Assembly: GCA_963844865.1 (NCBI GenBank)
Contig: CAWJPY010000001.1
Coordinates: 81,415-145,414, forward strand
DNA length: 64,000 nucleotides
Reading direction: 5' to 3'
Source: an uncultured Holophagae bacterium
GTDB taxonomy: Bacteria > Acidobacteriota > Thermoanaerobaculia > Thermoanaerobaculales > Sulfomarinibacteraceae
Position numbers and translations under genes: made by a program. Positions 41,299 to 56,474 of the stretch are shown here, piece after piece (the stretch's first letter is position 1; each line of letters starts with the position of its first letter). The notes under the pieces are model-generated. The model did not search any database. It was not told the DNA's origin and saw nothing but the letters and a program-made list of their open reading frames with translations.

Positions 41299-41653
41299 AC
41301 CCCGCGGAGAGCATGAGACGGTGAGGAGCAACGGCGGGACATGAGGCCCGAGCAAGGACCCGGAAGCTCTCGATGCTTCGATGAGCCGCCTCCGGGACCT
41401 CCAGACCTGGGAAGCAAGACTCGCATTTTGCTCATGACCGGTTCGAGATGCGCGAGCGAAATGCACGCCGACGGGAGGACCGCTCCAGGTGGCATCCTCT
41501 CTCGAGCGGGCTGCACACCCCGTCCGACTCGGCCGAACCTCGTTTCGACGATCGCGGCACTGATCTTGCTCTCACTGGATCAGGCGTACGACCACGAGGC
41601 GACCGAGCTTGCTCGGCCGAGACCGTGAGAGATGACGACGAGGAGGTGTGAGG

Positions 41654-43591
41654 ATGACCAGCACACCATTTTCTGAGCTGAGGGTCGGTCCGGTGGAGCT
41701 GCCCAACCGGTTGGCCATGGCGCCGGTCAAGACCGCATTCGGCATGCCGGGGGGCCTGGTGTGCCCTCAGCACGTGTCCTACTACCGGAGGCGGGCGGAG
41801 GGCGGCGCCGGACTGATCATCGTCGAGCCGCTGTTCGTGGACCCTCGGGGGCGGGAGCACCCCAAGCAGCTCGGCGCGCACACCGACGACGTGGTCGTCG
41901 GCCTGCATGCAGTGGTGGAGGCGATCCACGCGCACGGCACGATCGCCTTCGCTCACCTCAACCATGCCGGCCGCGCCGCCAACCCGAAGGCGATCGGAGG
42001 GCCGTCGGAGGCTCCGTCGGCGGTACCCTGCCCGTCCACCGGCGCGACGCCGGAGCCGATGGATGCCGCGAGGATCCTCTCCGTCCTCGAGTCCTATGGT
42101 GACGCCGCGCGCAGGTCGAGGGAGGCCGGGTTCGACGGTGTCGAGCTGCAGCTCGGGCTCGGTTACCTGCCGGCGCAGTTCATGTCGCCCAGGACGAACC
42201 ACCGCGGGGATGAGTACGGCGGTGTGGGAGACAGCCGCTGGCGCTTCGTCGAGGAGCTGGTCCGCATCGTCCGGCAGGCCGTCGGGTCCCACATGGCCCT
42301 GACCGCCCGCATCTCCGCCGACGAGAGGTGCGAGGGCGGGCTGGGGCTCGACGACGCCGTGCAGCTGGTGGAGCGCCTCGCCGCGTGGGGCTTCCACGGG
42401 GTGCACGTGGTGACCGGATCGGCGTGCGACAGCCCGCCCTGGTACTACCAGCACATGGCCCTTCCTCCGGGCGTCAACGAGGAGCTCGCCGCCCGGATCC
42501 GCGGCTCTGCATCGATCCCGGTGATGGTGGCCGGCAGGCTCGGCGTGCCCGCGCGCATCCGCGACATCCTCGGAAAGGGCATGGCGGATGTGGTCGCCCT
42601 GGGCCGGCCGCTCGTGGCCGATCCGGATCTGCCCCGCAAGATGCGGGAGGGCCGCGACGAGGACATCATGTCGTGCGGGGCGTGCCTCCAGGGATGCCTG
42701 GCCAAGGTCAAGGGGGGCGGGCCCATCGGCTGCATCGTCAACCCCGAGATCGGCCACGAGGCCGAGTGGCCCCTGCCGGCCGCGGCCGTCGGCGAGCGCC
42801 TCGTGGTGATCGGTGGAGGTCCGGCGGGAATGGAGGCGGCGCTGACGGCGCAGCTGGCGGGGTACAGCGTCACCCTCCTCGAGCGGCGCGGATCGCTCGG
42901 CGGACAGTTCACGCTCGCCCCGCTGACCACCGGCAAGGAGGCCATGGAGCGGCCGCTGCGGTCCCTGATCACCGCGGTGGAGCGATCCGGCGTGGAGATC
43001 CGCACCGGGGTGGAAGCAGCGGCAGCGGAGGTTCTCGAGCTCGGTCCTTCCCACGTCATCGTCGGCACCGGCTCGCGTCCGATGATCCCGCCCATCCCCG
43101 GTCTCGACGACCCGCTCACGGCCGAGGAGGTGCTCACCGGTGTCCGCGAGCCGGGCCACCGCGTGCTCATCCTGGGCGGCGGTCTGGTGGGAATCGAGAT
43201 GGCGGAGCACCTGGCCCGGGCCGGCCACGAGGTGGTGGTCGTCGAACTCCTCGACGACGTCGCCCGGGACATGGAGGCGATCACCCGCAAGATGACGCTG
43301 AAACGGCTGGAGTCTCTGCCGGTGGAGATCTTCACGTCCACGCGGCTCGTCCGCTCCTCGGACGGCGAAGCGTTCACACGTAGCGCAGGTGGCGGTGACG
43401 AGAGATCCATCGGTCGCTTCGACTCCCTGCTGGTCGCGATCGGCCACCGCTCGCACGATCCTCTGTCCGAGGAGCTCCGATCGGCCGGCGTCACCGTGAC
43501 GGTCATCGGCGATGCTCATGAGCCCCGACAGATCTTCGATGCTGTCCACGCCGGCCGCGATGCGGTGGACGCCCTCCTGCGGGGAGCGTGA
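41654..43591 (+). CDS. FadH-like NADH:flavin oxidoreductase (OYE domain, 4Fe-4S, FAD/NAD(P) domain)
   Basis: N-terminal OYE TIM barrel (MAPVKT...HLNHAGR), CGACLQGC cluster motif and VIGGGPAGMEAA plus ILGGGLVGIEMA dinucleotide folds. AGGAGG lies before ATG 41654. Confidence 0.82.
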   Translation: MTSTPFSELRVGPVELPNRLAMAPVKTAFGMPGGLVCPQHVSYYRRRAEGGAGLIIVEPLFVDPRGREHPKQLGAHTDDVVVGLHAVVEAIHAHGTIAFAHLNHAGRAANPKAIGGPSEAPSAVPCPSTGATPEPMDAARILSVLESYGDAARRSREAGFDGVELQLGLGYLPAQFMSPRTNHRGDEYGGVGDSRWRFVEELVRIVRQAVGSHMALTARISADERCEGGLGLDDAVQLVERLAAWGFHGVHVVTGSACDSPPWYYQHMALPPGVNEELAARIRGSASIPVMVAGRLGVPARIRDILGKGMADVVALGRPLVADPDLPRKMREGRDEDIMSCGACLQGCLAKVKGGGPIGCIVNPEIGHEAEWPLPAAAVGERLVVIGGGPAGMEAALTAQLAGYSVTLLERRGSLGGQFTLAPLTTGKEAMERPLRSLITAVERSGVEIRTGVEAAAAEVLELGPSHVIVGTGSRPMIPPIPGLDDPLTAEEVLTGVREPGHRVLILGGGLVGIEMAEHLARAGHEVVVVELLDDVARDMEAITRKMTLKRLESLPVEIFTSTRLVRSSDGEAFTRSAGGGDERSIGRFDSLLVAIGHRSHDPLSEELRSAGVTVTVIGDAHEPRQIFDAVHAGRDAVDALLRGA

Positions 43592-43783
43592 GGGCAGATC
43601 GCAGTGCCGAGGAATGCGGTGCGCCCGCGGGGCCACGAACACCCGTGCTGCTGTATCCTGCAGAGATGGTGGTCCCGTAACCTCGCAAAACGCATCTCCG
43701 CCGCACCACCGGCGTGGCCATAGTCGGGCAACCGCGAGGGAACAGGACTTGCAGAGTGGCCCAACGAACGCCGGGAGGCGACC

Positions 43784-44149
43784 ATGGCACACATGATCCT
43801 GGTGGTGGATGACGAGGACGATGTGCGGACCTTCCTCAGCGGCGTCCTGGAGCGAGCGGGGTATCGGACGGCGGTGGCCGCTGACGGTGAGGAGGCCTTC
43901 GACCTCGTCGAGCAGGAGAGGCCGGCGGTGATCATCCTCGACCTCCAGATGCCCAATCAGACCGGGACCCAGTTCTACCGCAGGCTCCACAACCACCACG
44001 AGCTGGCGGACATCCCGGTGATCGTGGTCAGCGGAATCGCGGGACGTCACCTGGCGGTGCGGGAGCCGTTCGCCGTCTTCGACAAGCCGATCGACCCGGA
44101 CGAGTTCATCGCCGCGGTCGAGAGGGCCGCCGGCGAGGTCGTGGCGTAG
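43784..44149 (+). CDS. single-domain response regulator (CheY-like receiver)
   Basis: ILVVDDEDD...IILDLQMP...VSG...KP receiver signature. Confidence 0.85.
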   Translation: MAHMILVVDDEDDVRTFLSGVLERAGYRTAVAADGEEAFDLVEQERPAVIILDLQMPNQTGTQFYRRLHNHHELADIPVIVVSGIAGRHLAVREPFAVFDKPIDPDEFIAAVERAAGEVVA

Positions 44150-44181
44150 CCGGACCCGGAAGGTCTCGCGACCCCGAGTCT

Positions 44182-44721
44182 CTATGAAGCTCCTCGCTCC
44201 TTCTCGAGGGCTTCCTGGATTCTCTTGAGGGTCGCGATATCGGCATCGCCGAGGCGGGTGGAGATGTCCGATCGGAGGCGATCCGGTTCGTCCATCCCTG
44301 CCTCCTGATCGAGGGGGGCGAGACCGAGGATCTTCCTGACGTTGTTGAGGAACCTCTCCGGACTGACCGGCTTCTCGAGATAGGTGAGGGGGCCGGCCAT
44401 GATCTTGCTCGAGAAGATCTCGTCGAAGTCGTCCTTGCCCAGGTCGTCTCTCGCGTGGGCCGTGACGATCATGATCGGGATCCTGGCCCAGTCCCGATTC
44501 TTGCGCAGCTCGTACAAGAACCTGATCCCGGACTTACCGGGCATGACCAAGTCGAGGGAGATGAAGTCCGGCCTCCTCTCCTTGACCGCCTGCAGCGCCT
44601 CGTTGCCGTCCGAGGCGGTCATCACGTTGAAGCCGGCGCGCTCGAGGATGCCGGAGAAGTACGCGATGACGTCGGGCTCGTCGTCCACGATCAGGATCGT
44701 CTTGTCCTCGGGACGGGTCAT
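44182..44721 (-). CDS. response regulator (receiver plus ~50-aa C-terminal tail)
   Basis: ILIVDDEPD...SLDLVMPGKSG...TAH...KP. The ATG overlaps the kinase stop (ATGA). Confidence 0.85.
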   Translation of the reverse strand: MTRPEDKTILIVDDEPDVIAYFSGILERAGFNVMTASDGNEALQAVKERRPDFISLDLVMPGKSGIRFLYELRKNRDWARIPIMIVTAHARDDLGKDDFDEIFSSKIMAGPLTYLEKPVSPERFLNNVRKILGLAPLDQEAGMDEPDRLRSDISTRLGDADIATLKRIQEALEKERGAS

Positions 44722-46529
44722 TGCTCTCTCCCTCCTTGCTTGGGGCGATCACCGTGCGCGGTCAGCGCGGGGAGACGGTGACGCGGAAAGAGGAGGCGAA
44801 CCGTCGAGCCAACGCCGGGCGTCGACTCGATGTCTACGTTGCCTCCGTGCTCGGTGACCGTCTTCTTGGTCACCAGCAGACCGAGGCCGGTGCCGGCGGT
44901 TCCCTTGGTCGTGAAGAAGCTGGTGAACACCTTGCGCGTGATCTCGGCGTCCATGCCGCAGCCGTTGTCCTCGACCTCGAACTCGAGACACCCGCGTCGA
45001 TCTCGGGTTCGAACCACGACTCGGCCTCCATCGCGGTCGCTCACGAGGCAGGCGTCGATCGCGTTCGAGATCAGGTTGGCCAGGCAACGGTGAATGCCGT
45101 CGGCGTCCAGGTTCGCGGCCCGGATCCCCTCCTGGAGCTCGCTGGAGATCACCACGCCCTTCTCGCGCGCCGCCTCCTCGAACAGAGCCACCACGTCCTT
45201 CACGAGGGCATTCGGATCGGTGGGTGCGACCTTCGCCTCGCGGCCCTTCGCGAAGCTCAGAAACTCGCGTACGAAGGTCGTGATCTTGTGGAAGTTCCGA
45301 TCGAGCATCTCCCAGCCCTGCTGGAGCTTGTCTCGCCGGTCCTCCTCGATCCCCCAGCGCACCAGGAACATCCCACCCTCCAGCCCGGTCAGGATGTTCT
45401 TGACCCCGTGGGCGAGCCCGGCCACGGTCTGGCCGACGGCCGCCAGCCGCTCCGCATCCAGCTTCTCCCGCTCGAGCCTCTTGACGTCCCGCAGGTCCTG
45501 CAGGAAGCCCGCGGTGCCGAGCGTCCGGTCACCGCGACGGACCACCACGCCGGCAAAGCGAACGGGAATCTCGACGTTCCCGGCTCGTATCGTGGTCTCG
45601 CGCAGGATCGAGCTGCTTCCCCCGTCACCCAGCACAGCCAGGAACTCCGCCGGGTAGACGCGCTCCAGCTCGGTACTCCCCCGCATCTCATCCGCGGTGA
45701 CGCCGAGCAGGGCCTCGGCCGCAGGGTTGAGCACGGTGATTCGCCTCTCGGCATCGGTGGCGACGATGGCGTCGAACGACTGATCGATGGTGCTGGCCAA
45801 GAACTGCCGCTCCCGCTCCAGCGCCGCCTCGAGGACCTCGACGTCGGTGACATCGTGCAGGATCTCGATGATGTACTCGATCGGCTCTCCCTTGCGGGCC
45901 AGGGGCGCGGTGGTCACTACGTAGGACGCCTGCTGTCCGTCCTTCCGACGTGCGACGGAGCGGGCGCTGTGGACCCCTCCGTCCTCGAGGCTGCGCAGCG
46001 CGGGGCAGCCCGGGCAGCGCTCATCGGTGTTCTTGTACGCCTCGTGGCAGAGCTTGCCCACCTGGTCGCCAAACGTCGTGCGCAGCAGCTCGTTGGTGCG
46101 TACGATGCGCAGCCGGCGATCGAGCACGGCGACGTAGCATGGAACCCGCTCGAACAGGATCTGGTGCTCGCGCTCGAGGTGCTTGCTCTGGGTGACGTCG
46201 GTGGCCATGGTGAGGACGTAGGCCACACGGCCGTCCTCCCCGGGCACCGGAACGCAGTGGACGACGTAGTGCCCGTGCCGGCCCGCCTTGTCGACCCAGA
46301 CCTCGGTCGTGGTGCGGCTCCGTCCGTCCGCGAAGACCCGAGCTGCCTCACACCCTTCGCAGCGGGTGCTGCAGCCGCGGAGAACGTCGTAGCATCGCCG
46401 GTTCTCCCACTCCCCGAAGACACTGGCGAGCCGCCGGTTGGCCTTGACGATGCGGTACTCACGGTCGAGCACGCCGAGGATCTGCGGGACCTCCTCGAAG
46501 AGGTGCGACTGGATCCAGGAGTCGATCAT
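44718..46529 (-). CDS. cytoplasmic sensor histidine kinase with three PAS domains (two Cys-rich)
   Basis: H-box LAHGVKNIL; N, G1 and G2 boxes (LISNAIDA, DNGCGM, GTGLGL). No TM segments. ATG 46529 overlaps the upstream RR stop; the ORF-track start at 46775 is an extension. Confidence 0.88.
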   Translation of the reverse strand: MIDSWIQSHLFEEVPQILGVLDREYRIVKANRRLASVFGEWENRRCYDVLRGCSTRCEGCEAARVFADGRSRTTTEVWVDKAGRHGHYVVHCVPVPGEDGRVAYVLTMATDVTQSKHLEREHQILFERVPCYVAVLDRRLRIVRTNELLRTTFGDQVGKLCHEAYKNTDERCPGCPALRSLEDGGVHSARSVARRKDGQQASYVVTTAPLARKGEPIEYIIEILHDVTDVEVLEAALERERQFLASTIDQSFDAIVATDAERRITVLNPAAEALLGVTADEMRGSTELERVYPAEFLAVLGDGGSSSILRETTIRAGNVEIPVRFAGVVVRRGDRTLGTAGFLQDLRDVKRLEREKLDAERLAAVGQTVAGLAHGVKNILTGLEGGMFLVRWGIEEDRRDKLQQGWEMLDRNFHKITTFVREFLSFAKGREAKVAPTDPNALVKDVVALFEEAAREKGVVISSELQEGIRAANLDADGIHRCLANLISNAIDACLVSDRDGGRVVVRTRDRRGCLEFEVEDNGCGMDAEITRKVFTSFFTTKGTAGTGLGLLVTKKTVTEHGGNVDIESTPGVGSTVRLLFPRHRLPALTAHGDRPKQGGREQ

Positions 46530-46954
46530 GTCGTTGCCCTCCGCGAGCGCGCCGCCATCTCCACGGTTGCCACGAAGGCGTCGGCGTTGGGAGGCTTCTC
46601 GATGTACTCGTACGGACCGGCGACCGGCTCGTCGATCGGTTCGTCCGGCGGGAAGGTGATGTGCGGCTTGAGGGCGCTGATGAAGACCACCGGCGTCTGG
46701 TCGATCTCCTCGTCGGCGCGGATTCTCCGTAGCAGGGCGGTTCCGCTCTCCTCGGGCATCACGATGTCGATGCACGCGACGTCCGGGTGCACCCGCTTGA
46801 TCAGCTCGAACCCTTCAGCGGCGCTGGCCGCGGTGTAGGCCCGGTGGCCGCGCCTCTCCAGCACCGCCGCCAGATAGGCCGCCACGTCGGGTTCGTCGTC
46901 GATGATGATCACCGACAGGGGGCCTGCGCCGCTCTCATCTCGCTTCCCCTTCAT
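46526..46954 (-). CDS. single-domain response regulator
   Basis: VIIIDDEPD...CIDIVMPEESG...KP. ATG 46954 overlaps the stop of the NrfD-cytochrome gene (ATGA). Confidence 0.8.
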   Translation of the reverse strand: MKGKRDESGAGPLSVIIIDDEPDVAAYLAAVLERRGHRAYTAASAAEGFELIKRVHPDVACIDIVMPEESGTALLRRIRADEEIDQTPVVFISALKPHITFPPDEPIDEPVAGPYEYIEKPPNADAFVATVEMAARSRRATT

Positions 46955-48837
46955 CCGCCACCTCGGGTGGCCAGCTCGTGGCTCTGCCGCTGGCGAGCGA
47001 GAGTCGCCATCTGGACCTTGCCGGCTTCGTGATGGCACGTGGCGCAGTCACCGTGGTGCGGCCGCTCCAGCTCCGCGGCGCGCTCCTTGTGGCATGGGAT
47101 GCACAGATTGTGCATGGCGTCCATGTATCCGGCGGCCGCCCGATAGCGCTCCGGATCCTCGGGCTCGATCCTCGACTTTTCACGGTTGATGGCGAGCTCG
47201 TGGCGGTGGCAGCCTTCGGCCGTGCAGCCCACCGTCGTCTCCGCACACCTCGGTCCCGCCTGGGGCGGGTGACAGACCACACACGGTTTGCGGTGCTCAC
47301 GCTCCTCGATCGTGCGGACGTGACCATCGTGGTCGAAGATGCTCGTGGGCGACCACATGTCCCGGTGACAGCTCCAGCACGGTGTGTCCTCGTCGAGCGG
47401 CAGCGCCATGTGGTGACAGACCGGGCACGACTCCTCGCCCCCCAGCTTGTCCTCGTGCTTGCGGTGAGGGAAGCGGACAACCTCGCCGGCCCGGTCACCG
47501 TCGATCAGGAGAACGTCACGGCCGCGCGGCCGACTGACCGCCTCGGGGACGGCGGAGGCGCCGAACAGGGCGGCCCGGGGCAGCAGCCCGAAGGCGACCG
47601 CCGCGCCGAAGACGAAGGCCAGCGAGTAGCGCTTGAAGCCGCCGAGCACGGAGCCGTCCCGAAACACGCCGGAGACTCTGTCCCGCTCTGGAGGTGAGAA
47701 CCTCGTGTCCCGGTCATCGAGCTCGGGTTCGGGCTGCCACACCTCATAGTGCTCCACGAGAAACATCCAGATCAGCACGGCGATCCCCGGGACGAGGCCC
47801 AGGCTCATCAGCAGCTCCAGGGCCGACGGGAAGTAGGTCGTTCCGGTGGGGGCGATCGTCGCCAGCCCGGCAACGCTCACCCGGTTGAGGACGAACCCGA
47901 CCACCACAGCGAGCGCCACCAACCCGAGCAGGGTCCGGTTCTCCCGGACCCGGCGCCACTGCAGCAGCAGCGACGGCACCAGGAGCAGCGGCACCATCTC
48001 GAACCAGAACAGGGCGCCGCTCCAGCTCCGCTCGATCAGGTAGGCAACGTCTCCCCGGACAACGAGATCGACCAGGCGGATCGCCATGAACAGCCACACC
48101 ACCAGGGCCAGGAAGCGGCCGAGGTGCTGCAGCTGGCGGTCGTTGACTTTCCTGCGATACAGGAAGTTCGCGATGTACGACTCGACGATGACCGCCGCCA
48201 GGCCCATGGCCACGCAGGAGACGAAGAACTGGACGTTGATGATCGGCGTGTAGAACAGGGGGTGCAGCCGATGCGGCATGATGGCGAACAGGGTGCCCAG
48301 GGACGACTGGTGGAGCACCGACAGCGCGATGCCGAACACCACCAGGGGGATGGCCACGCGTCTGAGAAAGCCCAAGCAGAGATCGCACAGCCGGGACTGC
48401 TCGCGGTGCTTCTCGAGGACCACCGGTGCAAACTCCAGCGCCAGCACCGTGAGGTAGAGCATGACGCACCAGGCGACCTCGAAGAGCGGTGAGTGGAGGT
48501 TCCAGAAGACCACGGGCCGCCAGATGTTCCACGGGATCCCGAGGTCGACGATGAGGCTGACCACGAAGAAGGTGTAGCCGAGGAAGCCGAGCAGCACCGC
48601 CCGCCGGGCCAGCAGATGGTACGGCTCCAGCCTGAAGATGTAGACCACCGCCGCGATCGTGAAGCCACCGGCGGCGAACGCGACGCCAGCCAGCTTGAGC
48701 CCGATCCACAGCCCCCACGGCGTCACATCGCTGAGATTGGTGGTGGCGCCGAGGCCGGTGGCAAAACGGGCGGCGAGCGCCACCAGCGCAGCGCCGACGA
48801 CCGCCCACAGGATCGTCTTGACCACCCGGACTCTCAT
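46951..48837 (-). CDS. NrfD/PsrC/DsrP-like quinone-interacting membrane subunit fused to a C-terminal multiheme cytochrome c domain
   Basis: About 10 TM helices of the NrfD type (GLWIGLKLAGVAFAAGGF...), one further TM, then a ~190-aa domain with CPVCH, CWSCH, CVVCH, CTAEGCH (CX4CH), CIPCH and CATCH. ATG 48837 overlaps the upstream stop. Confidence 0.8.
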   Translation of the reverse strand: MRVRVVKTILWAVVGAALVALAARFATGLGATTNLSDVTPWGLWIGLKLAGVAFAAGGFTIAAVVYIFRLEPYHLLARRAVLLGFLGYTFFVVSLIVDLGIPWNIWRPVVFWNLHSPLFEVAWCVMLYLTVLALEFAPVVLEKHREQSRLCDLCLGFLRRVAIPLVVFGIALSVLHQSSLGTLFAIMPHRLHPLFYTPIINVQFFVSCVAMGLAAVIVESYIANFLYRRKVNDRQLQHLGRFLALVVWLFMAIRLVDLVVRGDVAYLIERSWSGALFWFEMVPLLLVPSLLLQWRRVRENRTLLGLVALAVVVGFVLNRVSVAGLATIAPTGTTYFPSALELLMSLGLVPGIAVLIWMFLVEHYEVWQPEPELDDRDTRFSPPERDRVSGVFRDGSVLGGFKRYSLAFVFGAAVAFGLLPRAALFGASAVPEAVSRPRGRDVLLIDGDRAGEVVRFPHRKHEDKLGGEESCPVCHHMALPLDEDTPCWSCHRDMWSPTSIFDHDGHVRTIEEREHRKPCVVCHPPQAGPRCAETTVGCTAEGCHRHELAINREKSRIEPEDPERYRAAAGYMDAMHNLCIPCHKERAAELERPHHGDCATCHHEAGKVQMATLARQRQSHELATRGGG

Positions 48838-49658
48838 GCCTCCCCCCCATCCTCCGGCTCGGAGCGCTGTGAAGAGCTCGGTGGCACCTTTCCTCTCCCC
48901 TCCTCCTCCATGACCCGATCGCGGCGCCTGAGGAAAAGATAGGTCCCGGCCATCACGGCGCACGCGCTGACGAAGGTAGCGGGCACCGTCGACAGGATGC
49001 GCTCGGTGGCGTGGGGATAGGGCTCGTCGCCCAGCGAGCCATACCGGGGGCCGAAGACGTCGTCCAGATTGACCTCGGAGAGGTAGAGGACCGAGGTGCC
49101 GCCGACCTGGTGCTCGCCCCAGATCCGGTTGGAGAAGTAGACCCCAGGGTTGTCGGCGATGCGTCGCCGCGCCTCATCGAGGGCCTCCTCGCGGCTCGTG
49201 AAGAACACCGTGGCCTCCTCCGGGCAGGCCTTGGTACAGGCAGGCTGATCGATGTCGCCCCGGCGCATGGCCTCGTAGCACATGGTGCACTTGCTGATGT
49301 AGGGGAAGTTCTTCTCCCACATGTAGCGGGGGATCTCGTACGGGCAGGCCATCATGCAGTAGCGACAGCCCATGCAGATCTCGCGATCGTAGACCACGGG
49401 GCCGTCCGCGGTCTTGTGCAGGGCGCCGACCGGGCAGACGGCGGCGCAGGCCGGCTCCAGGCAGTGTCGGCACTGCAGGCGTACGTAGTGATCACCCGGT
49501 TCGTGCACAACCGAGGTGTAGCGGGCGCCGTTGAGCCCGTCGGGCTCCCGCCACCGGTAGCGCATGTCCGATGAGAGGTGGTTGATCTCGACGCACGCGT
49601 CCACGCAGCGCTCACAACCGGTGCACCTGGTGGTGTCGGTGAGGATGGCGAAGCTCAT
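48834..49658 (-). CDS. 4x[4Fe-4S] ferredoxin subunit (DmsB/HmcB/DsrO-like) with a C-terminal TM anchor and no recognisable signal peptide
   Basis: CTGCERCVDAC, CRHCLEPACAAVCP, CMGCRYCMMACP and CTMC...CTKACP cluster motifs. TM helix VPATFVSACAVMAGTYLFL. The protein starts MSFAILTDTTRC with no RR motif. ATG 49658 follows GGAGGG. Confidence 0.82.
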   Translation of the reverse strand: MSFAILTDTTRCTGCERCVDACVEINHLSSDMRYRWREPDGLNGARYTSVVHEPGDHYVRLQCRHCLEPACAAVCPVGALHKTADGPVVYDREICMGCRYCMMACPYEIPRYMWEKNFPYISKCTMCYEAMRRGDIDQPACTKACPEEATVFFTSREEALDEARRRIADNPGVYFSNRIWGEHQVGGTSVLYLSEVNLDDVFGPRYGSLGDEPYPHATERILSTVPATFVSACAVMAGTYLFLRRRDRVMEEEGRGKVPPSSSQRSEPEDGGEA

Positions 49659-50356
49659 ATGGGCTGACCCTCCTTGCCGACCTGGCGAGCAACCGCCTCG
49701 GGGTAGCTGTCGGGGAAGCGCCACGCCAGCTCGGACGGCAACCTGGTCAACGGCAGCAACGCCATGTGGGCGAGCTTGGTGAAGGGAATGACCAGGAAGC
49801 AGACGCCGCCGCTCAGGACGTGCACGAGCATGGTGGGGTCGTAGGGAAACGGGTTGACGCCGGGGTGGGCGGCCAGAAATCCGGACAGGAACGGGACCGT
49901 CAGCAACGCGGGCAGGGTCCAGTCCTGGGCCCTGCTGATGACCCTGGATGCACGTCCGGCCAACCGCGAGAGCAGCAGCGCCAACGCAGCCCCCACCGTC
50001 ACCAGGGACAGCACGTCCGCGACGCCCCCGGGCAACGCCCACCACGAGAGGCCGAGGTTGGCGTCGATCAGCTGAATGTGAGCCCACAGGAGGATCGGCG
50101 TGAGGATCACTCCGATGTGGAACAGGACCGAAAGTCCCGAGAAGAGCCGGTGTTGGCGCAGGTGGCGCAGGGGAACGATCCAGTCCACAGTCTGGGCGGC
50201 GACGCGGCCCCAGGAGACGTCCTTGTGCTCGGTGAGCCGACGGGCTCGGGCGACACTCCACAGTGTCACGATCACGCTGCGCGCCAGCCCCAGCACCATG
50301 ACGGCGAACGTGAAACGGAAGAACGGGCCACGCGCGAATGCCAGCCACTCATCCAT
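49655..50356 (-). CDS. NarI/DsrM/HmcE-like membrane cytochrome b subunit
   Basis: 5-6 TM helices with conserved His (FHIGVILTPILLWAH, MLVHVLSG) in the position typical for DsrM next to DsrK. ATG 50356 after GGAGGGAGAGAAGGAG. Confidence 0.7.
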   Translation of the reverse strand: MDEWLAFARGPFFRFTFAVMVLGLARSVIVTLWSVARARRLTEHKDVSWGRVAAQTVDWIVPLRHLRQHRLFSGLSVLFHIGVILTPILLWAHIQLIDANLGLSWWALPGGVADVLSLVTVGAALALLLSRLAGRASRVISRAQDWTLPALLTVPFLSGFLAAHPGVNPFPYDPTMLVHVLSGGVCFLVIPFTKLAHMALLPLTRLPSELAWRFPDSYPEAVARQVGKEGQPI

Positions 50357-50375
50357 TGCTCCTTCTCTCCCTCCC

Positions 50376-51833
50376 TCAGATGGCGGTCGGATCCTCGACG
50401 CGACGCTCGGCGGCGGGCCTCGCACCAGGGATCTCGATCGCCTTCAGGATCAGGTCGTGGAGACCCACGACCTCGACCTCCCCCAGCTCGTGATCCTCGA
50501 CGAGCTCGCGGAGCTGCTTCTTGCAGTTGGCGCAGGGGGCAACCACGTACCGGGCGCCGGAGGCACGGATCTGGTCCGCCTTGCGCTTGCCGCCGACGCC
50601 GGTGCGGAAGCTGCGAATCTCATCGATGGAAACGGTGCCCCCGCCGCCGCCGCAGCAGTAGTTGTCGCTGCCGCAAGGGTCCATCTCGACGTAGTTCGCG
50701 CAGAACGAGCGCAGGATCTCGCGCGGCTGATCGATGATCCACCCCTTGCGGGCCACGTTGCAGGGGTCGTGATAGGTCACCACGTCGGTGACGATGTCCG
50801 GGTTGAGGGTCAGCCTGCCCTCCTCCAGCATCCGGTGCGTCCACTCGACGCAGCTCACCACCTCCGGTGGATCCGCCCCGCCGAACACCGGAACGTAGTC
50901 CTTGGCCGAACGAGAGGCGTGGCCGCACTCGCCGACCATGATCTTGGAGCACCGCAGACGTCGGACCTCCGCGGTGAGCTGCCGGATGATGCGGCGCAGG
51001 TAACGGTCGTTGATGAACAACCCGTAGTTGATGCCGTCGAAGTCGCCGGAACCGATGGTCCACGAGCAGCCCGTCGCATAGAACACCGCCGCGTTGCCCA
51101 TCAGGGTGTCGGCCTCCAGCAGGAAGTCGCTGACCGCCGGCACGAAGAGATACTCTGCCTCCCCGACGTCGATCGGAAACCTGACCTGGTCGAAGCCGAG
51201 CTGCTCCTCCAGCTCCTCCTCGAGGAACTCGCAGGTGTCGGCCATGGCCGCCACGGGGATCGCAGAGGTGTTGTGGGTCCTGCCCTCCAGCTGCTCACGC
51301 ACCGCCACCACCAGCGCCTTGGGCGCCAGCCCGATCTCCGACAGGATGTGGCGCATCAGGTGGGTCATCAGGCCGTGGTCGATGCCCAGCGGACACTCCA
51401 TGGTGCAGCGGCGGCACGCGGTGCATCGGTAGACCGACTCCGCCATCTCGTCGAGGTATGAGTCGGTGAGCTCCCACGCCGTGCCGAGACGGGCGCGGAG
51501 CATGCCGGAGACGGTGAAGTATCGGCGGTAGATCCTGAGAATGAGCTCGGTTCGATAGCAGGGAATGTCCCGAGGGTCCCCACTGGTGTCGTACACCGGG
51601 CAGACGTCGGCACAGCGGGAGCACTTGGTGGTGACGCGCGAGTACAGATCGAGCCAGTATCCGTAGGCGCTGTGACGGACGACGGCCGCCATCACCGAGA
51701 GGAACCGCCGGACCCGGTTGCGCTCATCGTAGGGTTCGACGTAGAACGAGTATCGTCCGGCGCCCTCGACCCCGGCACCACTACGCGGACTCGATTCCGG
51801 GTCAACATCGATCGCCGCCTCGTGCACCATCAC
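50376..51833 (-). CDS. HdrD/DsrK/HmcF-like Fe-S protein with two CCG domains
   Basis: CSRCADVCPV and CTACRRCTMECPLG ferredoxin motifs, plus CCG-type motifs (HDPCNVAR, CCGGGGG, PCANCKKQL). Confidence 0.85.
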   Translation of the reverse strand: MMVHEAAIDVDPESSPRSGAGVEGAGRYSFYVEPYDERNRVRRFLSVMAAVVRHSAYGYWLDLYSRVTTKCSRCADVCPVYDTSGDPRDIPCYRTELILRIYRRYFTVSGMLRARLGTAWELTDSYLDEMAESVYRCTACRRCTMECPLGIDHGLMTHLMRHILSEIGLAPKALVVAVREQLEGRTHNTSAIPVAAMADTCEFLEEELEEQLGFDQVRFPIDVGEAEYLFVPAVSDFLLEADTLMGNAAVFYATGCSWTIGSGDFDGINYGLFINDRYLRRIIRQLTAEVRRLRCSKIMVGECGHASRSAKDYVPVFGGADPPEVVSCVEWTHRMLEEGRLTLNPDIVTDVVTYHDPCNVARKGWIIDQPREILRSFCANYVEMDPCGSDNYCCGGGGGTVSIDEIRSFRTGVGGKRKADQIRASGARYVVAPCANCKKQLRELVEDHELGEVEVVGLHDLILKAIEIPGARPAAERRVEDPTAI

Positions 51834-52511
51834 CCTCCTCGCCAGGACCCACAGAGGTCCTGTCCTTCATGACCCGAGCAAGATCTGAACCAGCTCCGCG
51901 AGGTGCGCCCGAGGTCCGTCGGCGGGGACCGTAGCAAGCTCGAGCGTCGCCGTGACCGGGTCGACCGCCCCGGGCGAGCAGAGGGCGCGACGGCAGCGTC
52001 CGTGGACAGGGCCGAAACGGAAACCTCCGTGCGACATGAGCCTCCGAGGGCGTCACGACGCGTCCTCGCAGCGCGAGGCCGGTCTCGGCGAGGGCAGCGC
52101 TCTCATCCACGACGCGGACGTTCGCGACGGACATACCACTGCGGATCCGGGACGAGGATCCCACCCCGGCAAGTGCTGCAAAGTGCATTGTTACAGCTCG
52201 ACGATCTTCACAGGATGCTCGCGTGGGACTGGACCAGGCGACCTGCTGGAACACCAGCGAAGCATGCCCGGCCCGCCGCCCAAGACCTCCTGCCGGCGCC
52301 CTTCTCCGGCGGCTCGCCGGAAGGTCTGCCACCCCTTCTCGCGTCTCCCCCCTGATCCTCCGACCGAGGTGGAAGGCACCTTGCTTGAACGCGTCTGTGT
52401 GGTGTCTGAGGCGGAGGCAGAGCAACCGATGCTGAGTGTCCAGGCGACCCGGTCCCGCGCGACGCCGGTGGAGGGTGACGCGCTCGGCCCGACACACCTC
52501 GGGGGAACGAC

Positions 52512-52910
52512 ATGAAGGCACTGCTGGTCCTCTCTGAGCGTGAGCCGCTCCTGATCGTCACCCCGCGCGCGGCCATCCGTGATGGCCGCCTGGCGGCTGA
52601 CCTTGCCGGCAGAGGGTTGCCGAGGTTCATCGCGTACGACCTGCCGCTGGAGAAGGTGCGCGAGAGATATGGCCCGTCGTTCTCAGTCATCGAGCGGGCG
52701 GTCATGACGGGCCGGCGGTCCCGCGTGCTCGACTTCGACGGCGCGAGGACCTTCCGCCACCTCTCCATCTCCGACCTCGGCTCATCGTTCGTCTGCGACC
52801 GCGATGAGCGTCAAGCTTCGGATGTTCCGCGGCGGGGGGCCTCCCCCCTCTGGGAAAGCGAGCGTCCGCCGAGCACCAGAACCGGGTGCCGAGACGATCG
52901 ACCGTGGTGA
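52512..52910 (+). CDS. hypothetical small cytoplasmic protein
   Basis: Strong GC3 bias over roughly the first 95 codons (MKALLVLSEREPLLIVTP...FIAYDLPLEKVRERYG...VLDFDGARTFRHLSISDLG), GGGGGA before the ATG. The 3' tail overlaps the convergent rSAM gene and loses codon bias. Confidence 0.5.
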   Translation: MKALLVLSEREPLLIVTPRAAIRDGRLAADLAGRGLPRFIAYDLPLEKVRERYGPSFSVIERAVMTGRRSRVLDFDGARTFRHLSISDLGSSFVCDRDERQASDVPRRGASPLWESERPPSTRTGCRDDRPW

Positions 52911-54762: not shown

Positions 54763-54778
54763 AGCAATGTTCCTGCCA
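54763..54778 (-). promoter_or_regulatory. putative sigma-54 promoter of the NifX-like/TrmO/rSAM operon
   Basis: The minus strand reads TGGCAG-GAACA-TTGCT (GG/GC spacing as in the consensus), located between the sigma-54 activator stop and the NifX-like ATG. The predicted TSS is 3-4 nt before ATG 54749, so the transcript would be near-leaderless. Confidence 0.45.
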
Positions 54779-54894: not shown

Positions 54895-56268
54895 CTAATG
54901 CCCCCGCTTGGAGCGGGTGCTGCGGCCGTCGCTCGCCGGCGGTGTGACCCCGAGTGCTTTCATCTTGCGAGCCAGCGTCGTGGGGTGGATCCCCAGCTCC
55001 TTTGCCACCGCCTTGCGGTTGCCCTCGTGGCGCCTGAGGGCGTCGCTGATGTGAAACGCCACCAGGGAGTCCAGGGACGCTCCCGGCCTCAGGTCGGGTG
55101 GTGACGCATACGCACTCTCGAGCAGCTCCCTGGGCATGTGCTGACTCTCGACGAGTCCGCCCTGGCACAGGACGAAGGCGTGTTCGATGATGTTCTCGAG
55201 CTCCCGCGCGTTGCCGGGAAAATCATATCCCATGAGCATGCTCAGGACATCGTCCGAGACTCCGACGATGTCCTTGTTCTGAATGCGGTTGAAGCGAGCG
55301 ATGAAGTGCTCGATCAGGAGCGGGATGTCCTCCCTACGGTCGCGCAGAGTCGGGAGATCCAGTCGAAACACGTTGATCCGGTAGTAGAGGTCCTCACGGA
55401 ACTTGCCCTCGCGCACCAACTTCTCGAGGTCCTGGTGGGTGGCGGTGATCACCCGGACGTCCGCCTGTACCGGCTCCACTGACCCGAGGGGTTCGTACAC
55501 GCGCTCCTGGAGCACCCGCAGCAAGCGCACCTGCATCGCCGGTGAAATGTCCCCGATCTCGTCGAGAAGGATGGTGCCGCCCTCGGCGAGGGCGAAACGT
55601 CCCGGCTTGTCCTTGCGAGCGTCGGTGAAAGCTCCCGCTCTGTACCCGAACAGCTCCGATTCGAGCAGGGTGTCGGGCAGGGCACCACAGTTTATCGCCA
55701 CGAAGCGCTTGCCTCTGCGCGACGACAGATCGTGAATGGCTCGTGCGAAGAGCTCCTTGCCGGTGCCGCTCTCGCCGTGGATCACGATCGTGCTGTCGCT
55801 GTCCGCGATGATCGGGAGCAGGTCGAAGAGCGATCGCATCGCCGCACTCCGCCCGATGATGTCCGCGAACCGGTAGCGACCCTCGAGCTCACGCCGCAGC
55901 TCCTCGACCTGGGTGAGATCGCGGAACGTCTCCACGCCTCCCACGATGTTCCCGGCGTCGTCTCTCAGGATGGCGGTCGATATGCTGACCGGAACCTCCC
56001 GTCCTTCGGCGTCGATGATGTAGATGGCCTTGTTGACCACGGGGCGTTTGGATGCGAGCGTCTGTCTCAGGGCGCACTCGGTCTCGCAGATGCTGGCCCT
56101 GAACACGTCGCAGCACTCTCGTCCCATCGCCTCCTGCTGAGAGATGCCGGTGATCCTGGAGGCCGAGGCGTTGAACGACGTGATCCGCCACTCCGTATCG
56201 ACGGTGAAGACACCGTCGGTGACGCTGTCCAGGATCGTCTGCGCGGCCTCCGGATTCGGATGATGCAC
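54895..56268 (-). CDS. sigma-54-dependent transcriptional activator (Cys-rich PAS, AAA+, Fis HTH)
   Basis: GESGTGKE Walker A, the GAFTDA (GAFTGA-type) sigma-54 contact loop, ESELFGY and the C-terminal HTH AKELGIHPTTLARKMK. GTG 56268 after GAGGTGG; the ORF-track start 56283 is also GTG. Confidence 0.9.
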   Translation of the reverse strand: MHHPNPEAAQTILDSVTDGVFTVDTEWRITSFNASASRITGISQQEAMGRECCDVFRASICETECALRQTLASKRPVVNKAIYIIDAEGREVPVSISTAILRDDAGNIVGGVETFRDLTQVEELRRELEGRYRFADIIGRSAAMRSLFDLLPIIADSDSTIVIHGESGTGKELFARAIHDLSSRRGKRFVAINCGALPDTLLESELFGYRAGAFTDARKDKPGRFALAEGGTILLDEIGDISPAMQVRLLRVLQERVYEPLGSVEPVQADVRVITATHQDLEKLVREGKFREDLYYRINVFRLDLPTLRDRREDIPLLIEHFIARFNRIQNKDIVGVSDDVLSMLMGYDFPGNARELENIIEHAFVLCQGGLVESQHMPRELLESAYASPPDLRPGASLDSLVAFHISDALRRHEGNRKAVAKELGIHPTTLARKMKALGVTPPASDGRSTRSKRGH

Positions 56269-56474
56269 GATAGCCCACCTCACGCGTGCGCACTGCGACC
56301 GTTGATCTCTCCTTGCGATCGGCCCCGGCGCGGTCGCAGCCTCGTCTACGCTCTATGATCAGATCTCGGCCGATCGATGTCAAAGGCGGCACACGACGAC
56401 CGTCCGGCCTCGGGTAGCTGCAGTGTTGAAGGACCCGTTTGGCGAGCCGGCGTCCTTTCCTCATAATGCGGCCG

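What the first reader, a model, noticed from the sequence alone, without database searches (positions are those of the whole stretch)
44182..51833. A Hmc/Dsr-type transmembrane redox complex is co-operonic with a response regulator - kinase - response regulator module
Seven minus-strand genes are linked by 4-nt ATGA overlaps or gaps of 20 nt or less, in this order:
- HdrD/DsrK-like CCG protein;
- NarI/DsrM-like cytochrome b;
- 4-cluster ferredoxin;
- NrfD-like protein fused to a multiheme cytochrome;
- receiver;
- soluble triple-PAS histidine kinase;
- receiver.

The first four correspond to the DsrK, M, O and P+J (or HmcF, E, B, C+A) modules. No dsrAB, dsrC, hydrogenase or other obvious redox partner is nearby. 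Translational coupling of a respiratory-type complex to a signalling module suggests one of two things. The complex may feed a redox signal to the kinase, or the two-component proteins may tune its own expression. Both are inference.
Basis: partly seen in the sequence, partly recalled or inferred. Interest (0 to 1): 0.6.

Follow-up and report, generated by a model that had tools for sequence, protein, structure and literature searches.

The report
Hmc-like redox complex with dedicated sensor
This is a real seven-gene operon, conserved across many bacterial phyla, that joins an uncharacterised relative of the sulfate-reducer Hmc membrane electron-transfer complex to its own iron-sulfur-type redox-sensing kinase and receiver proteins, which probably switch the complex itself rather than its genes.

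Summary
Seven minus-strand genes (51830..44182) are joined by five ATGA overlaps and one 19-nt gap, and no internal promoter or terminator is predicted.

- **The complex.** The first four genes encode an Hmc-family complex: an HdrD-like CCG protein, a di-haem cytochrome b, a four-cluster FeS protein that never carries a signal peptide, and a 10-helix NrfD fused to a six-haem cytochrome c.
- **Conservation.** At least 590 species genomes have a relative of the NrfD-cytochrome fusion. In the 80 best loci, the three core genes lie upstream in 59/65 and the kinase module lies directly downstream in 35/57.
- **Kinase-complex link.** In a 201-genome sample of the window's own phylum, 14 of 15 kinase relatives sit beside the complex (Fisher p = 3.5e-17).
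- **The sensor.** The kinase's first two PAS domains carry an invariant Cys triad plus an acidic residue. These align with the [4Fe-4S] site of the redox sensor OrpR. An OrpR-type sigma-54 activator lies upstream.
- **The receivers.** None has a DNA-binding domain. In about 30 of 50 carrier genomes, a paralogous cassette fuses an A-like CCG protein to a G-like receiver, next to an F-like kinase.

I conclude that the kinase senses cytoplasmic redox and that the receivers act on the HdrD-like subunit. This last step is inferred. Precedents are the D. vulgaris hmc-rrf1/rrf2 operon and the Geobacter cbcBA operon.

The parts
50376..51830 (-). A: HdrD/DsrK/HmcF-like cytoplasmic CCG iron-sulfur protein (484 aa), with two ferredoxin-type Cys motifs and one complete CCG domain
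   Evidence: Pfam CCG 49 bits plus Fer4_8. NCBIfam DsrK 276, HmcF 214 and TmcB 199 bits, all below cut-off. C70/73/77/91, C136/139/142/146 and C302/357/392/393/433/436 are conserved in 60-65 of 65 orthologues. No TM segment.
49655..50356 (-). B: NarI/HmcE/TmcC-like di-haem cytochrome b (233 aa)
   Evidence: NCBIfam TmcC 131 and HmcE 114 bits. Four His (H80, H93, H179, H197) are conserved in 70-74 of 74 orthologues. Start lies 19 nt after the stop of A.
48834..49658 (-). C: four-[4Fe-4S] HmcB/HybA-like ferredoxin with a C-terminal TM helix and no signal peptide (274 aa)
   Evidence: NCBIfam HmcB 221 bits, aligned from profile position 36. 16 Cys conserved in 78-79 of 79 orthologues. Median 30 nt between the cytochrome b stop and the first Cys codon in 74 orthologues; 71 of 74 lie within 27-39 nt, which leaves no room for a signal peptide, and the other three at 48, 51 and 107 nt were not inspected. 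ATGA overlap with B.
46951..48837 (-). D: 10-helix NrfD/HmcC/HybB-like quinone subunit, an 11th TM helix and a periplasmic six-haem cytochrome c3-like domain (628 aa)
   Evidence: Pfam NrfD plus Cytochrom_CIII. HmcC 253 and HybB 249 bits. Six invariant haem motifs and conserved distal His in 15 diverse orthologues. Positive-inside analysis gives N-in, with the haem domain outside.
46526..46954 (-). E: stand-alone receiver (142 aa)
   Evidence: Pfam Response_reg 62 bits, no other domain. ATGA overlaps with D and F. A short receiver is found either before the kinase or after G in relatives.
44718..46529 (-). F: soluble histidine kinase (603 aa): two tandem OrpR-type Cys-rich PAS domains, a third PAS, DHp and an ATPase domain
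   Evidence: Pfam PAS_4 x3 and HATPase_c. C46/C57/C60 conserved in 31/36 (the other 5 are gaps), C131 in 32/36, C161 and C172 in 34/36, C175 in 35/36, and H374 invariant in 36/36 orthologues. hhalign to the OrpR-like activator PAS gives 97-98% probability with the Cys columns aligned; PAS1 vs PAS2 E = 9e-47. No TM segment.
44182..44721 (-). G: receiver with a ~50-aa C-terminal helical tail (179 aa); always follows the kinase
   Evidence: Pfam Response_reg 81 bits. Receiver signature residues conserved in 43 aligned sequences (window G plus 42 orthologues), tail weakly conserved. Best match in the whole genome to the receiver fused to CCG proteins elsewhere (72 bits).
43784..44149 (+). R: convergent stand-alone receiver of the 'DVU0259 family' (121 aa)
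   Evidence: NCBIfam NF045717 125.7 bits. 64-84% identical to more than 100 metagenome proteins. A 67%-identical orthologue sits inside a canonical 16-haem Hmc operon next to dsrAB (L095).
51877..51892 (-). Weak sigma-54-like -24/-12 element TGGTTCAGATCTTGCT, 46 nt upstream of the start of A
   Evidence: 9 of 12 consensus positions, GG and GC at canonical spacing. In relatives, sites with >=10/12 occur within 1.5 kb upstream in 17/55 loci against 3.6% expected.
54895..56283 (-). OrpR-type sigma-54 enhancer-binding protein (Cys-rich PAS - AAA+ - HTH), the likely transcriptional activator of the neighbourhood
   Evidence: Pfam Sigma54_activat 227 bits, PAS, HTH_8. C57-x-D59...C66-x3-C70 equals OrpR C52/D54/C61/C65. 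The three Cys are invariant in 31/31 activators next to related loci. Such an activator lies within 6.5 kb upstream in 24/54 loci.

Best explanation
**Composition (shown).** The operon encodes an uncharacterised, widespread branch of the Hmc/Tmc/DsrMKJOP family of transmembrane electron-transfer complexes. On the outside are a six-haem cytochrome c domain and, by homology, the four-cluster FeS protein, both on a 10-helix NrfD quinone subunit. On the inside are a di-haem cytochrome b and an HdrD-like CCG reductase. The complex would link periplasmic carriers and the menaquinone pool to an unknown cytoplasmic redox couple. That couple is not DsrC in this organism.

**Transcription (inferred).** Transcription is probably sigma-54 dependent and driven by the neighbouring OrpR-type activator, so the operon would be switched on at low redox potential.

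**Signalling (inferred).** The last three genes are a dedicated module made only when the complex is made. The soluble kinase F reads cytoplasmic redox potential through two OrpR-type Fe-S PAS domains. It phosphorylates the stand-alone receivers G and E, and possibly R. G then binds the HdrD-like subunit A and gates electron flow through the complex post-translationally, not through DNA binding.

**Status of each step.** Shown: gene content, cofactor motifs, conservation of the linkage, Cys-triad homology to OrpR, and the existence of A::G fusion proteins. Inferred: cluster binding, phosphotransfer partners, the receiver's target and the direction of electron flow.
For: - Domain and cofactor assignments.
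- Translational coupling with no internal signals.
- Synteny across phyla: A-B-C-D in 59/65 loci, kinase module in 35/57, activator in 24/54.
- The kinase family is essentially confined to this complex: 14 of 15 occurrences are adjacent to D in a 201-genome sample, p = 3.5e-17.
- Tight junctions are kept in L001, L002 and a JGI contig.
- The Cys triad plus Asp/Glu is conserved in both PAS domains of all non-gapped orthologues and aligns with the activator's OrpR motif. OrpR binds a redox-sensitive [4Fe-4S] cluster through C52/C61/C65 (PMC8359166).
- The receivers have no output domain.
- Rosetta-stone evidence: single ORFs of 580-600 aa join an A-like protein (32% identity over A residues 70-475) to a G-like receiver (37-42%) with an intact phospho-acceptor Asp. 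They are followed in L099 and L100 by an F-like kinase carrying C-x-E-x8-C-x2-C; in L101 the downstream kinase ORF is truncated and no motif was found.
- Such fusions are present in about 30 of 50 genomes that carry the module.
- The own genome has no fusion, and G is its best receiver match to the fused domain.
- The same regulatory set (DVU0259-type receiver, Cys-PAS kinase, OrpR-type activators) accompanies a canonical 16-haem Hmc operon (L095).
- Sigma-54 sites are enriched upstream in relatives.
- Precedents: rrf1/rrf2 regulate hmc (PMC10924467). The Geobacter cbcBA operon has a sigma-54 promoter and an in-operon response regulator and is induced at low potential (10.1101/2021.04.15.440034).
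Against: - There is no expression, phosphotransfer or binding data.
- The fusion proteins belong to a paralogous cassette, not to this operon, so transferring the A-G interaction is an inference.
- About 14 of 20 genomes whose complex lacks an adjacent kinase have no orthologous kinase at all, and 4 of 18 D carriers in the phylum sample lack it. The module is therefore dispensable for the complex.
- The window's own sigma-54 site is weak (9/12). A 678-nt gap separates the operon from the strong sigma-54 promoter at 54763-54778.
- The PAS Cys spacing (C-x10-C-x2-C) differs from OrpR (C-x8-C-x3-C). Zn or disulfide chemistry cannot be excluded.
- The FeS subunit has no export signal in any orthologue, so even the topology of the complex is not settled.
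- In D. vulgaris, rrf1/rrf2 deletion changed hmc expression, which favours a transcriptional role for such receivers.
Confidence: 0.45

Rival explanations
1. Indirect autoregulation, as for Rrf1/Rrf2 of the D. vulgaris hmc operon. The kinase senses redox, and the phosphorylated stand-alone receivers modulate a DNA-binding partner (for example the OrpR-type activator, sigma-54 or an Rrf2-type protein). This would tune transcription of the operon.
For: - rrf1 and rrf2 are described as regulators of hmc expression (Keon 1997, cited in PMC10924467).
- An OrpR-type activator and sigma-54 sites accompany the operon family.
- The Geobacter cbcBA operon contains a response regulator and is controlled by a sigma-54 activator.
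- A DVU0259-type receiver lies in a canonical Hmc operon.
Against: - No receiver here has an output domain.
- The activator has a PAS input, not a receiver.
- No Rrf2-type gene is in the module.
- The covalent fusion of a G-like receiver to A-like reductases points to an enzyme as the target, not a transcription factor.
Confidence: 0.2
2. The complex is the sensory input. Electrons arriving from the periplasm or quinone pool pass through cytochrome b to the HdrD-like subunit. That subunit reduces or oxidises the Fe-S or thiol sites of the kinase's PAS domains. The seven proteins would then form a transmembrane redox sensor whose receivers signal to other cell systems.
For: - The cytoplasmic partner of Hmc and Tmc is unknown (PMC4215793).
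- This genome lacks a DsrC with redox-active cysteines.
- The kinase is almost never found away from the complex.
- Translational coupling would give fixed stoichiometry.
Against: - The homologous OrpR PAS domain senses redox potential on its own (PMC8359166).
- Many complexes exist without the kinase.
- Canonical Hmc and Tmc have respiratory phenotypes (PMC4215793).
- No evidence for contact between A and F was obtained.
Confidence: 0.15
3. Co-expression only. The kinase and receivers are a general redox-responsive signalling unit (for example for behaviour or metabolism). It shares the promoter of an anaerobically induced operon and has no physical or regulatory link to the complex.
For: - The module is absent from a substantial minority of loci, and its gene order varies: receiver-kinase-receiver in 12 loci and kinase-receiver-receiver in 12.
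- Stand-alone receivers commonly have distant targets.
Against: - 14 of 15 kinase relatives in a phylum-wide sample lie beside the complex (p = 3.5e-17).
- The linkage persists at 40-47% protein identity across phyla.
- Receiver fusions to the CCG protein exist.
Confidence: 0.1

Closest known systems
Hmc complex (HmcABCDEF) with rrf1/rrf2 of Desulfovibrio vulgaris Hildenborough
   Same: - It has the same four module types in one operon: a CCG protein (HmcF), a NarI-like cytochrome b (HmcE), a tail-anchored four-cluster FeS protein (HmcB) and an NrfD-type subunit (HmcC), plus c-type haems outside.
- A response-regulator gene lies at the end of the operon.
- C and D score best against HmcB and HmcC.
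- A canonical Hmc operon in L095 carries a 67%-identical orthologue of receiver R, a Cys-PAS kinase and OrpR-type activators.
   Different: - There are six haems fused to the NrfD subunit instead of a separate 16-haem HmcA.
- There is no HmcD gene.
- The FeS subunit has no signal peptide, whereas HmcB in L095 has a twin-arginine signal.
- The gene order is F-E-B-C::A.
- All scores fall far below the NCBIfam equivalog cut-offs.
- The host has no dsrAB.
- A full kinase with two or three receivers replaces rrf1 plus rrf2.
OrpR (DVU2106), the sigma-54 activator with a [4Fe-4S] redox-sensing PAS domain
   Same: - The upstream activator has the exact C-x-D...C-x3-C pattern.
- The kinase's PAS1 and PAS2 align to it with the Cys triad and the acidic residue in register.
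   Different: - In the kinase the motif is C-x-[DE]-x8-C-x2-C. It is duplicated in tandem and drives a histidine kinase rather than an AAA+ domain.
- Cluster binding is untested.
- In D. vulgaris the OrpR regulon is only the orp operons (PMC8359166).
Geobacter sulfurreducens cbcBA operon with BccR
   Same: It encodes an inner-membrane b/c-type cytochrome quinone oxidoreductase behind a sigma-54 promoter. A response-regulator gene sits inside the operon and an adjacent sigma-54 activator is present. It is induced as redox potential falls.
   Different: - The proteins are unrelated (no NrfD, FeS or CCG subunits).
- BccR has a receiver input, whereas the activator here has a PAS input.
- There is no in-operon kinase.
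Tmc (TmcABCD) and DsrMKJOP complexes of sulfate reducers
   Same: - A and B are the TmcB/TmcC and DsrK/DsrM pair.
- The receivers hit the NCBIfam 'DVU0259 family'. From memory, DVU0258-0260 (kinase and receivers) lie next to tmc in D. vulgaris; I did not verify this here.
   Different: - Tmc has no NrfD or FeS subunits.
- Dsr has a separate tri-haem DsrJ, and DsrO has a Tat signal. It works with DsrC and DsrAB, which this genome lacks.
CCG::receiver fusion cassette (A-like reductase fused to a receiver, followed by a Cys-PAS kinase) in uncultured bacteria
   Same: It uses the same three protein families as A, G and F, and it occurs in the same genomes: about 30 of 50 carriers, and immediately beside the module in L081.
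   Different: - The receiver is covalently attached.
- No NrfD, FeS or cytochrome c subunits were seen in the parts examined.
- It is itself uncharacterised.

Membership tests
Hmc complex (HmcABCDEF) | CCG protein, NarI-like cytochrome b, four-cluster FeS protein and NrfD-type subunit encoded together | tested here: met
   Cofactor ligands are conserved in 60-79 orthologues.
Hmc complex (HmcABCDEF) | Subunits reach the NCBIfam equivalog cut-offs for HmcF, HmcE, HmcB and HmcC | tested here: not met
   214/750, 114/275, 221/420 and 253/550 bits.
Hmc complex (HmcABCDEF) | Separate periplasmic 16-haem cytochrome HmcA | tested here: not met
   Six haem motifs, fused to the C-terminus of the NrfD subunit through an 11th TM helix.
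Hmc complex (HmcABCDEF) | FeS subunit HmcB exported by its own signal peptide | tested here: not met
   The protein starts 11 residues before the first Cys. The window-like short gap recurs across 74 orthologues: median 30 nt, 71 of 74 within 27-39 nt, and three outliers at 48, 51 and 107 nt not inspected. HmcB in L095 has MSMSRRGFLG....
Hmc complex (HmcABCDEF) | Small hydrophobic subunit HmcD (PF28260) | tested here: not met
   The junctions C-D and D-E are 4-nt overlaps, which leave no room for a gene. PF28260 is present in the canonical operon of L095.
DsrMKJOP | DsrK and DsrO equivalogs, a separate tri-haem DsrJ, and dsrAB plus dsrC with C-terminal Cys in the genome | tested here: not met
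   DsrK 276/400 and DsrO 95/200 bits. No dsrA in the 93%-complete genome. The only DsrC/TusE-like protein ends ...KLAGLRFS without the Cys pair.
Tmc (TmcABCD) | TmcB and TmcC equivalogs with a separate type II cytochrome c3 and no NrfD or FeS subunits | tested here: not met
   TmcB 199/735 and TmcC 131/240 bits. NrfD and FeS subunits are present.
OrpR-type Fe-S PAS sensor | Three conserved Cys plus an acidic residue two positions after the first Cys, at the OrpR positions of the PAS fold | tested here: met
   The activator has the exact spacing, invariant in 31/31. Kinase PAS1 and PAS2 have variant spacing, are conserved in all non-gapped orthologues, and their columns align by hhalign.
OrpR-type Fe-S PAS sensor | Binds a redox-sensitive [4Fe-4S] cluster | not testable with these tools
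   This needs anaerobic purification with UV-visible and EPR spectroscopy.
Two-component system | Kinase with a phospho-His and an ATPase domain; receivers with an acidic pocket, phospho-Asp, Thr/Ser and Lys | tested here: met
   H374 is invariant in 36/36 and HATPase_c scores 89 bits. Receiver signature residues are conserved. Pfam HisKA itself was not detected.
Two-component system | Response regulator with a DNA-binding output domain (classical transcriptional control) | tested here: not met
   E, G and R match only Response_reg. G has an extra ~50-aa helical tail with no family match.
Sigma-54-dependent operon | -24/-12 element upstream and a cognate enhancer-binding protein nearby | tested here: inconclusive
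   The window site matches 9/12 positions and an activator lies 3 kb upstream. In relatives, sites with >=10/12 occur in 17/55 loci against 3.6% expected.

The most novel reading that the evidence does not exclude
The seven proteins form a self-contained 'redox-stat'. The HdrD-like subunit exchanges electrons with the kinase's tandem Fe-S PAS domains, so the kinase reads the flux through its own complex. The phosphorylated stand-alone receiver G then docks on the HdrD-like subunit as a dissociable regulatory subunit and opens or closes the electron path. This would be direct control of a respiratory membrane complex by two-component phosphorylation, without transcription. It would also name a physiological partner for the long-orphan cytoplasmic face of Hmc/Tmc-type complexes.
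Probability: 0.12. Interest if true: 0.85.

Novelty: new variant of a known kind. Interest (0 to 1): 0.6.

Why it matters
Hmc, Tmc and DsrMKJOP are central to anaerobic respiration, but the cytoplasmic partner of Hmc and Tmc is still unknown. Their study has been confined to sulfate reducers.

This locus belongs to a compact, fused branch of that family. Relatives of its NrfD-cytochrome fusion are encoded in at least 590 species-level genomes of Acidobacteriota, Zixibacteria, Ignavibacteria, Planctomycetota, Gemmatimonadota, Myxococcota and others. At least some carriers, including this genome, lack dsrAB. I found no paper describing this branch.

Three features suggest that bacteria may switch a respiratory membrane complex directly by two-component phosphorylation:
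- The kinase is found almost only beside the complex and has tandem OrpR-type Fe-S PAS domains.
- The receivers have no output domain.
- The same receiver type is covalently fused to the HdrD-like reductase in sister cassettes.

Such a mode of control is rare and has not been shown for this enzyme family. The proteins are soluble or small enough that the idea can be tested with standard biochemistry.

Tried and rejected
- **Desulfovibrio tmc neighbourhood.** Literature searches for DVU0258/0259/0260 and rrf1 gave nothing useful. The D. vulgaris regulome papers do not mention hmc or tmc. My recollection that DVU0258-0260 flank tmc therefore remains unverified. The rrf1/rrf2 link is supported only through PMC10924467.
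- **Homologue search with receiver R.** The search returned no named Desulfovibrio protein. It did lead to the canonical Hmc operon in L095.
- **DsrC as the substrate of the CCG subunit.** Rejected for this genome: there is no dsrA, and the DsrC-like protein has no C-terminal cysteines.
- **An upstream start giving the FeS subunit a signal peptide.** Rejected. The upstream in-frame stretch lies inside the cytochrome b gene. The only extra start would add 22 non-hydrophobic residues. The short N-terminus recurs across the 74 orthologues examined (71 of 74 within 27-39 nt).
- **A Tat-like 'RVRRFLS' near the N-terminus of A.** Considered and rejected, because no hydrophobic segment follows it.
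- **A strict TGGCAC-N5-TTGC search.** It found nothing in the window. Only a relaxed pattern finds the site before A.
- **The NrfD review (PMC8076601).** It does not describe a cytochrome-fused NrfD with a CCG partner.
- **Structure prediction.** Not run, because the tools return no coordinates or multimer models that could test Cys geometry or A-G docking.

Full report
**Observation.** The window is GC-rich (about 67%). Between 44182 and 51833 the minus strand carries seven consecutive genes. Start-codon and Shine-Dalgarno inspection gives:
- A 51830..50376
- B 50356..49655
- C 49658..48834
- D 48837..46951
- E 46954..46526
- F 46529..44718
- G 44721..44182

A and B are 19 nt apart. Every other junction is an ATGA stop/start overlap. 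A consensus scan of 43500-53000 found no sigma-70-like promoter and only two terminator-like hairpins, no more than in shuffled sequence. The only refinements are the ATG start of A and the number of haems.

**What the proteins are.**
- A has two ferredoxin-type Cys motifs and a complete CCG domain (C357...C392C393...C433xxC436), conserved in 60-65 of 65 orthologues. It has no membrane segment. Its best NCBIfam matches are DsrK, HmcF and TmcB.
- B is a NarI-like cytochrome b with four conserved His: H80, H93, H179 and H197.
- C has 16 conserved Cys, giving four [4Fe-4S] clusters, and a C-terminal TM helix. It matches HmcB and HybA from profile position 36-39 onward, so it lacks their signal peptide.
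- D is a 10-helix NrfD protein (HmcC and HybB score about equally), followed by an 11th helix and a cytochrome domain. That domain has six haem-binding motifs and six conserved distal His. Positive-inside analysis puts the N-terminus inside and the haem domain outside.
- E, G and a third, convergent gene R (43784..44149) are receiver domains with no output domain.
- F is a soluble kinase with three PAS domains.

All family scores are well below the NCBIfam equivalog cut-offs. This is a relative of Hmc, Tmc and Dsr, not a member of any of them.

**Conservation.**
- The NrfD-cytochrome fusion has thousands of relatives in metagenomes. At least 590 species-level genomes encode one.
- Three look-ups at 66%, 47% and 44% identity showed the whole order CCG - cytochrome b - FeS - NrfD::cytochrome followed by the kinase module. 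The module reads receiver-kinase-receiver at 66% and 44% identity and kinase-receiver-receiver at 47%. Junctions are equally tight, and a PAS-sigma-54 activator lies upstream.
- In the 80 best genome loci (Acidobacteriota, Zixibacteria, Ignavibacteria, Planctomycetota, Gemmatimonadota, Myxococcota, Calditrichota and others), A-B-C precede D in 59/65 loci. A kinase with receivers follows directly on the same strand in 35/57. An activator lies within 6.5 kb upstream in 24/54.
- The constant unit is the kinase followed by a G-type receiver of 165-178 aa. A short second receiver sits either before the kinase or after G.
- In an even sample of 201 genomes of the window's own phylum, 18 carry a D fusion and 15 carry a relative of the kinase. 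In 14 genomes the two are adjacent. Fisher's exact p is 3.5e-17.
- The module is dispensable. Of 20 genomes whose complex lacks a neighbouring kinase, only about four to six have one elsewhere.

**The sensor.**
- An alignment of 36 kinases shows C46, C57 and C60 (with H87 and H91) conserved in PAS1. C131, C161, C172 and C175 (with H187) are conserved in PAS2.
- Both domains have the pattern C-x-[DE]-x8-C-x2-C. They are tandem duplicates (hhalign E = 9e-47).
- The activator upstream (54895..56283) has C57-x-D59...C66-x3-C70. This is exactly the pattern of D. vulgaris OrpR (C52, D/E54, C61, C65). [quoted passage not shown]
- Profile-profile alignment puts the kinase's Cys triads and acidic residues in the same columns as the activator's (97-98% probability). 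The three Cys are invariant in 31 activators from related loci.
- The general PAS similarity is not specific, because PAS3 aligns equally well. The specific evidence is the register of the ligands.
- I infer that F is an Fe-S redox sensor. This is not shown.

**Transcription.**
- A relaxed -24/-12 pattern finds TGGTTCAGATCTTGCT at 51892..51877, 46 nt before A. It matches only 9 of 12 consensus positions.
- In relatives, sites with at least 10/12 matches lie within 1.5 kb upstream on the same strand in 17/55 loci, against 3.6% expected. Sites with at least 11/12 lie in 8/55, against 0.4% expected.
- A better site (54763-54778) precedes the NifX-like/TrmO-like/radical-SAM genes between the activator and this operon (earlier notes).
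- Sigma-54 control by the OrpR-type activator is therefore likely for the family. It is unproven for this copy.

**What the receivers do.**
- They cannot bind DNA themselves, and the activator has no receiver domain.
- A lead from earlier notes of this scan was tested here. In L081 the seven-gene module is followed, convergently, by an ORF that carries both a CCG domain and a receiver domain (Pfam 40.5 and 73.6 bits) and then by a PAS kinase.
- Full-length versions (580-600 aa) align over their first 460 residues with A (32% identity) and over their last 120 with G (37-42%). They keep the phospho-acceptor Asp. In L099 and L100 they are followed by an F-like kinase with the same C-x-E-x8-C-x2-C motif. 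In L101 the downstream kinase ORF is truncated at 194 aa and no motif was found.
- Such fusions occur in about 30 of 50 genomes that carry the module.
- The window's genome has no fusion. Its best match to the fused receiver is G, and its second-best is R.
- By the usual logic of domain fusions, G is likely to work on A. The kinase would then gate the HdrD-like subunit post-translationally. This is my best explanation, at about 45%.
- The rivals are indirect transcriptional control as with Rrf1/Rrf2, the complex acting as input to the kinase, and mere co-expression.

**Relation to known systems.**
- The closest known system is the Hmc complex. In D. vulgaris its operon ends with rrf1 (a response regulator) and rrf2, described as regulators of hmc expression (PMC10924467).
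- Receiver R belongs to NCBIfam's 'DVU0259 family' and is 64-84% identical to many metagenome proteins.
- A 67%-identical orthologue lies inside a canonical operon (L095). That operon has a 16-haem HmcA, an HmcB with a twin-arginine signal, HmcC, HmcD, HmcE and HmcF. It sits next to dsrAB, together with a Cys-PAS kinase and two OrpR-type activators.
- The regulatory set is therefore shared by the canonical and the fused branches.
- The Geobacter cbcBA operon is a functional analogue: sigma-54 promoter, in-operon response regulator and induction at low potential.
- The cytoplasmic partner of Hmc and Tmc is unknown (PMC4215793).
- This genome has no dsrA. Its DsrC/TusE-like protein lacks the redox-active C-terminal cysteines. 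It has a [NiFe] hydrogenase elsewhere.
- I found no paper that describes the fused branch or links HmcF, TmcB or DsrK to receiver domains.

**Unresolved.**
- The FeS subunit has no signal peptide: 71 of 74 orthologues have only 27-39 nt between the cytochrome b stop and the first Cys codon, and the three outliers were not inspected. Yet its tail anchor (followed by RRRDR) and the orientation of the NrfD subunit both predict a periplasmic location. Known signal-less homologues are exported with a Tat partner (PMC10924467). No such partner is encoded here.

**Verdict.** This is a new variant of a known kind, with a testable and unusual regulatory hypothesis.

Noticed in passing
window 48834-49658 and 74 orthologues in L001-L082: The HmcB/HybA-like FeS subunit lacks an N-terminal signal peptide: 71 of 74 orthologues have only 27-39 nt between the cytochrome b stop and the first Cys codon, with three outliers at 48, 51 and 107 nt not inspected. 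Its C-terminal anchor and the N-in topology of the NrfD partner predict a periplasmic location, yet no Tat-signal partner is encoded in the operon. Either it hitchhikes on a protein encoded elsewhere, or this branch has a cytoplasm-facing FeS subunit.
   Followed up: partly
L081 16142-17149 (-); L099 1498-3297 (-); L100 1480-3543 (-); L101 700-2487 (+): HmcF-like CCG reductases are fused at the C-terminus to a phospho-competent receiver domain. In L099 and L100 they are followed by a Cys-PAS kinase. The fusions are up to 79% identical to the L081 query (identities 48-79% across the carrier genomes) and present in about 30 of 50 genomes that carry the Hmc-like module.
   Followed up: partly
window 43784-44149 (+); L095 10001-10366: The stand-alone receiver R is unusually conserved: 64-84% identity to more than 100 metagenome proteins, far higher than the complex subunits. 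An orthologue sits inside a canonical 16-haem Hmc operon beside dsrAB, with a HEAT-repeat protein, a second receiver, a Cys-PAS kinase and two OrpR-type activators.
   Followed up: partly
G000 contig C12 235353-235628 (locus L083 1480-1788): A DsrC/TusE-family protein of 102 aa lacks both C-terminal cysteines (it ends ...KLAGLRFS). It lies directly after an APS-kinase-like gene.
   Followed up: partly
window 51834-52701: This long stretch contains no convincing gene and lies between the radical-SAM gene and the operon. Its only recognisable signal is the weak sigma-54-like site at 51877-51892. No terminator-like hairpin was found there.
   Followed up: partly
window 44718-46529 (kinase F): Pfam detects no HisKA/DHp family in the kinase. 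The phospho-His box reads AGLAHGVKNILTGL (H374, invariant in 36 orthologues), a divergent AtoS/NtrB-like H-box.
   Followed up: no
window 41648-43591 (+): A 647-aa fusion of an Old-Yellow-Enzyme-like FMN oxidoreductase with a pyridine-nucleotide-disulfide oxidoreductase lies directly upstream of receiver R on the plus strand. The two may be co-transcribed.
   Followed up: no
genomes G163 and G185 (same family as the window's organism): Neither of the two same-family genomes sampled has the kinase. G163 has a D fusion at 40% identity, and G185 has only an NrfD-only relative. The module is therefore patchy even among close relatives.
   Followed up: no
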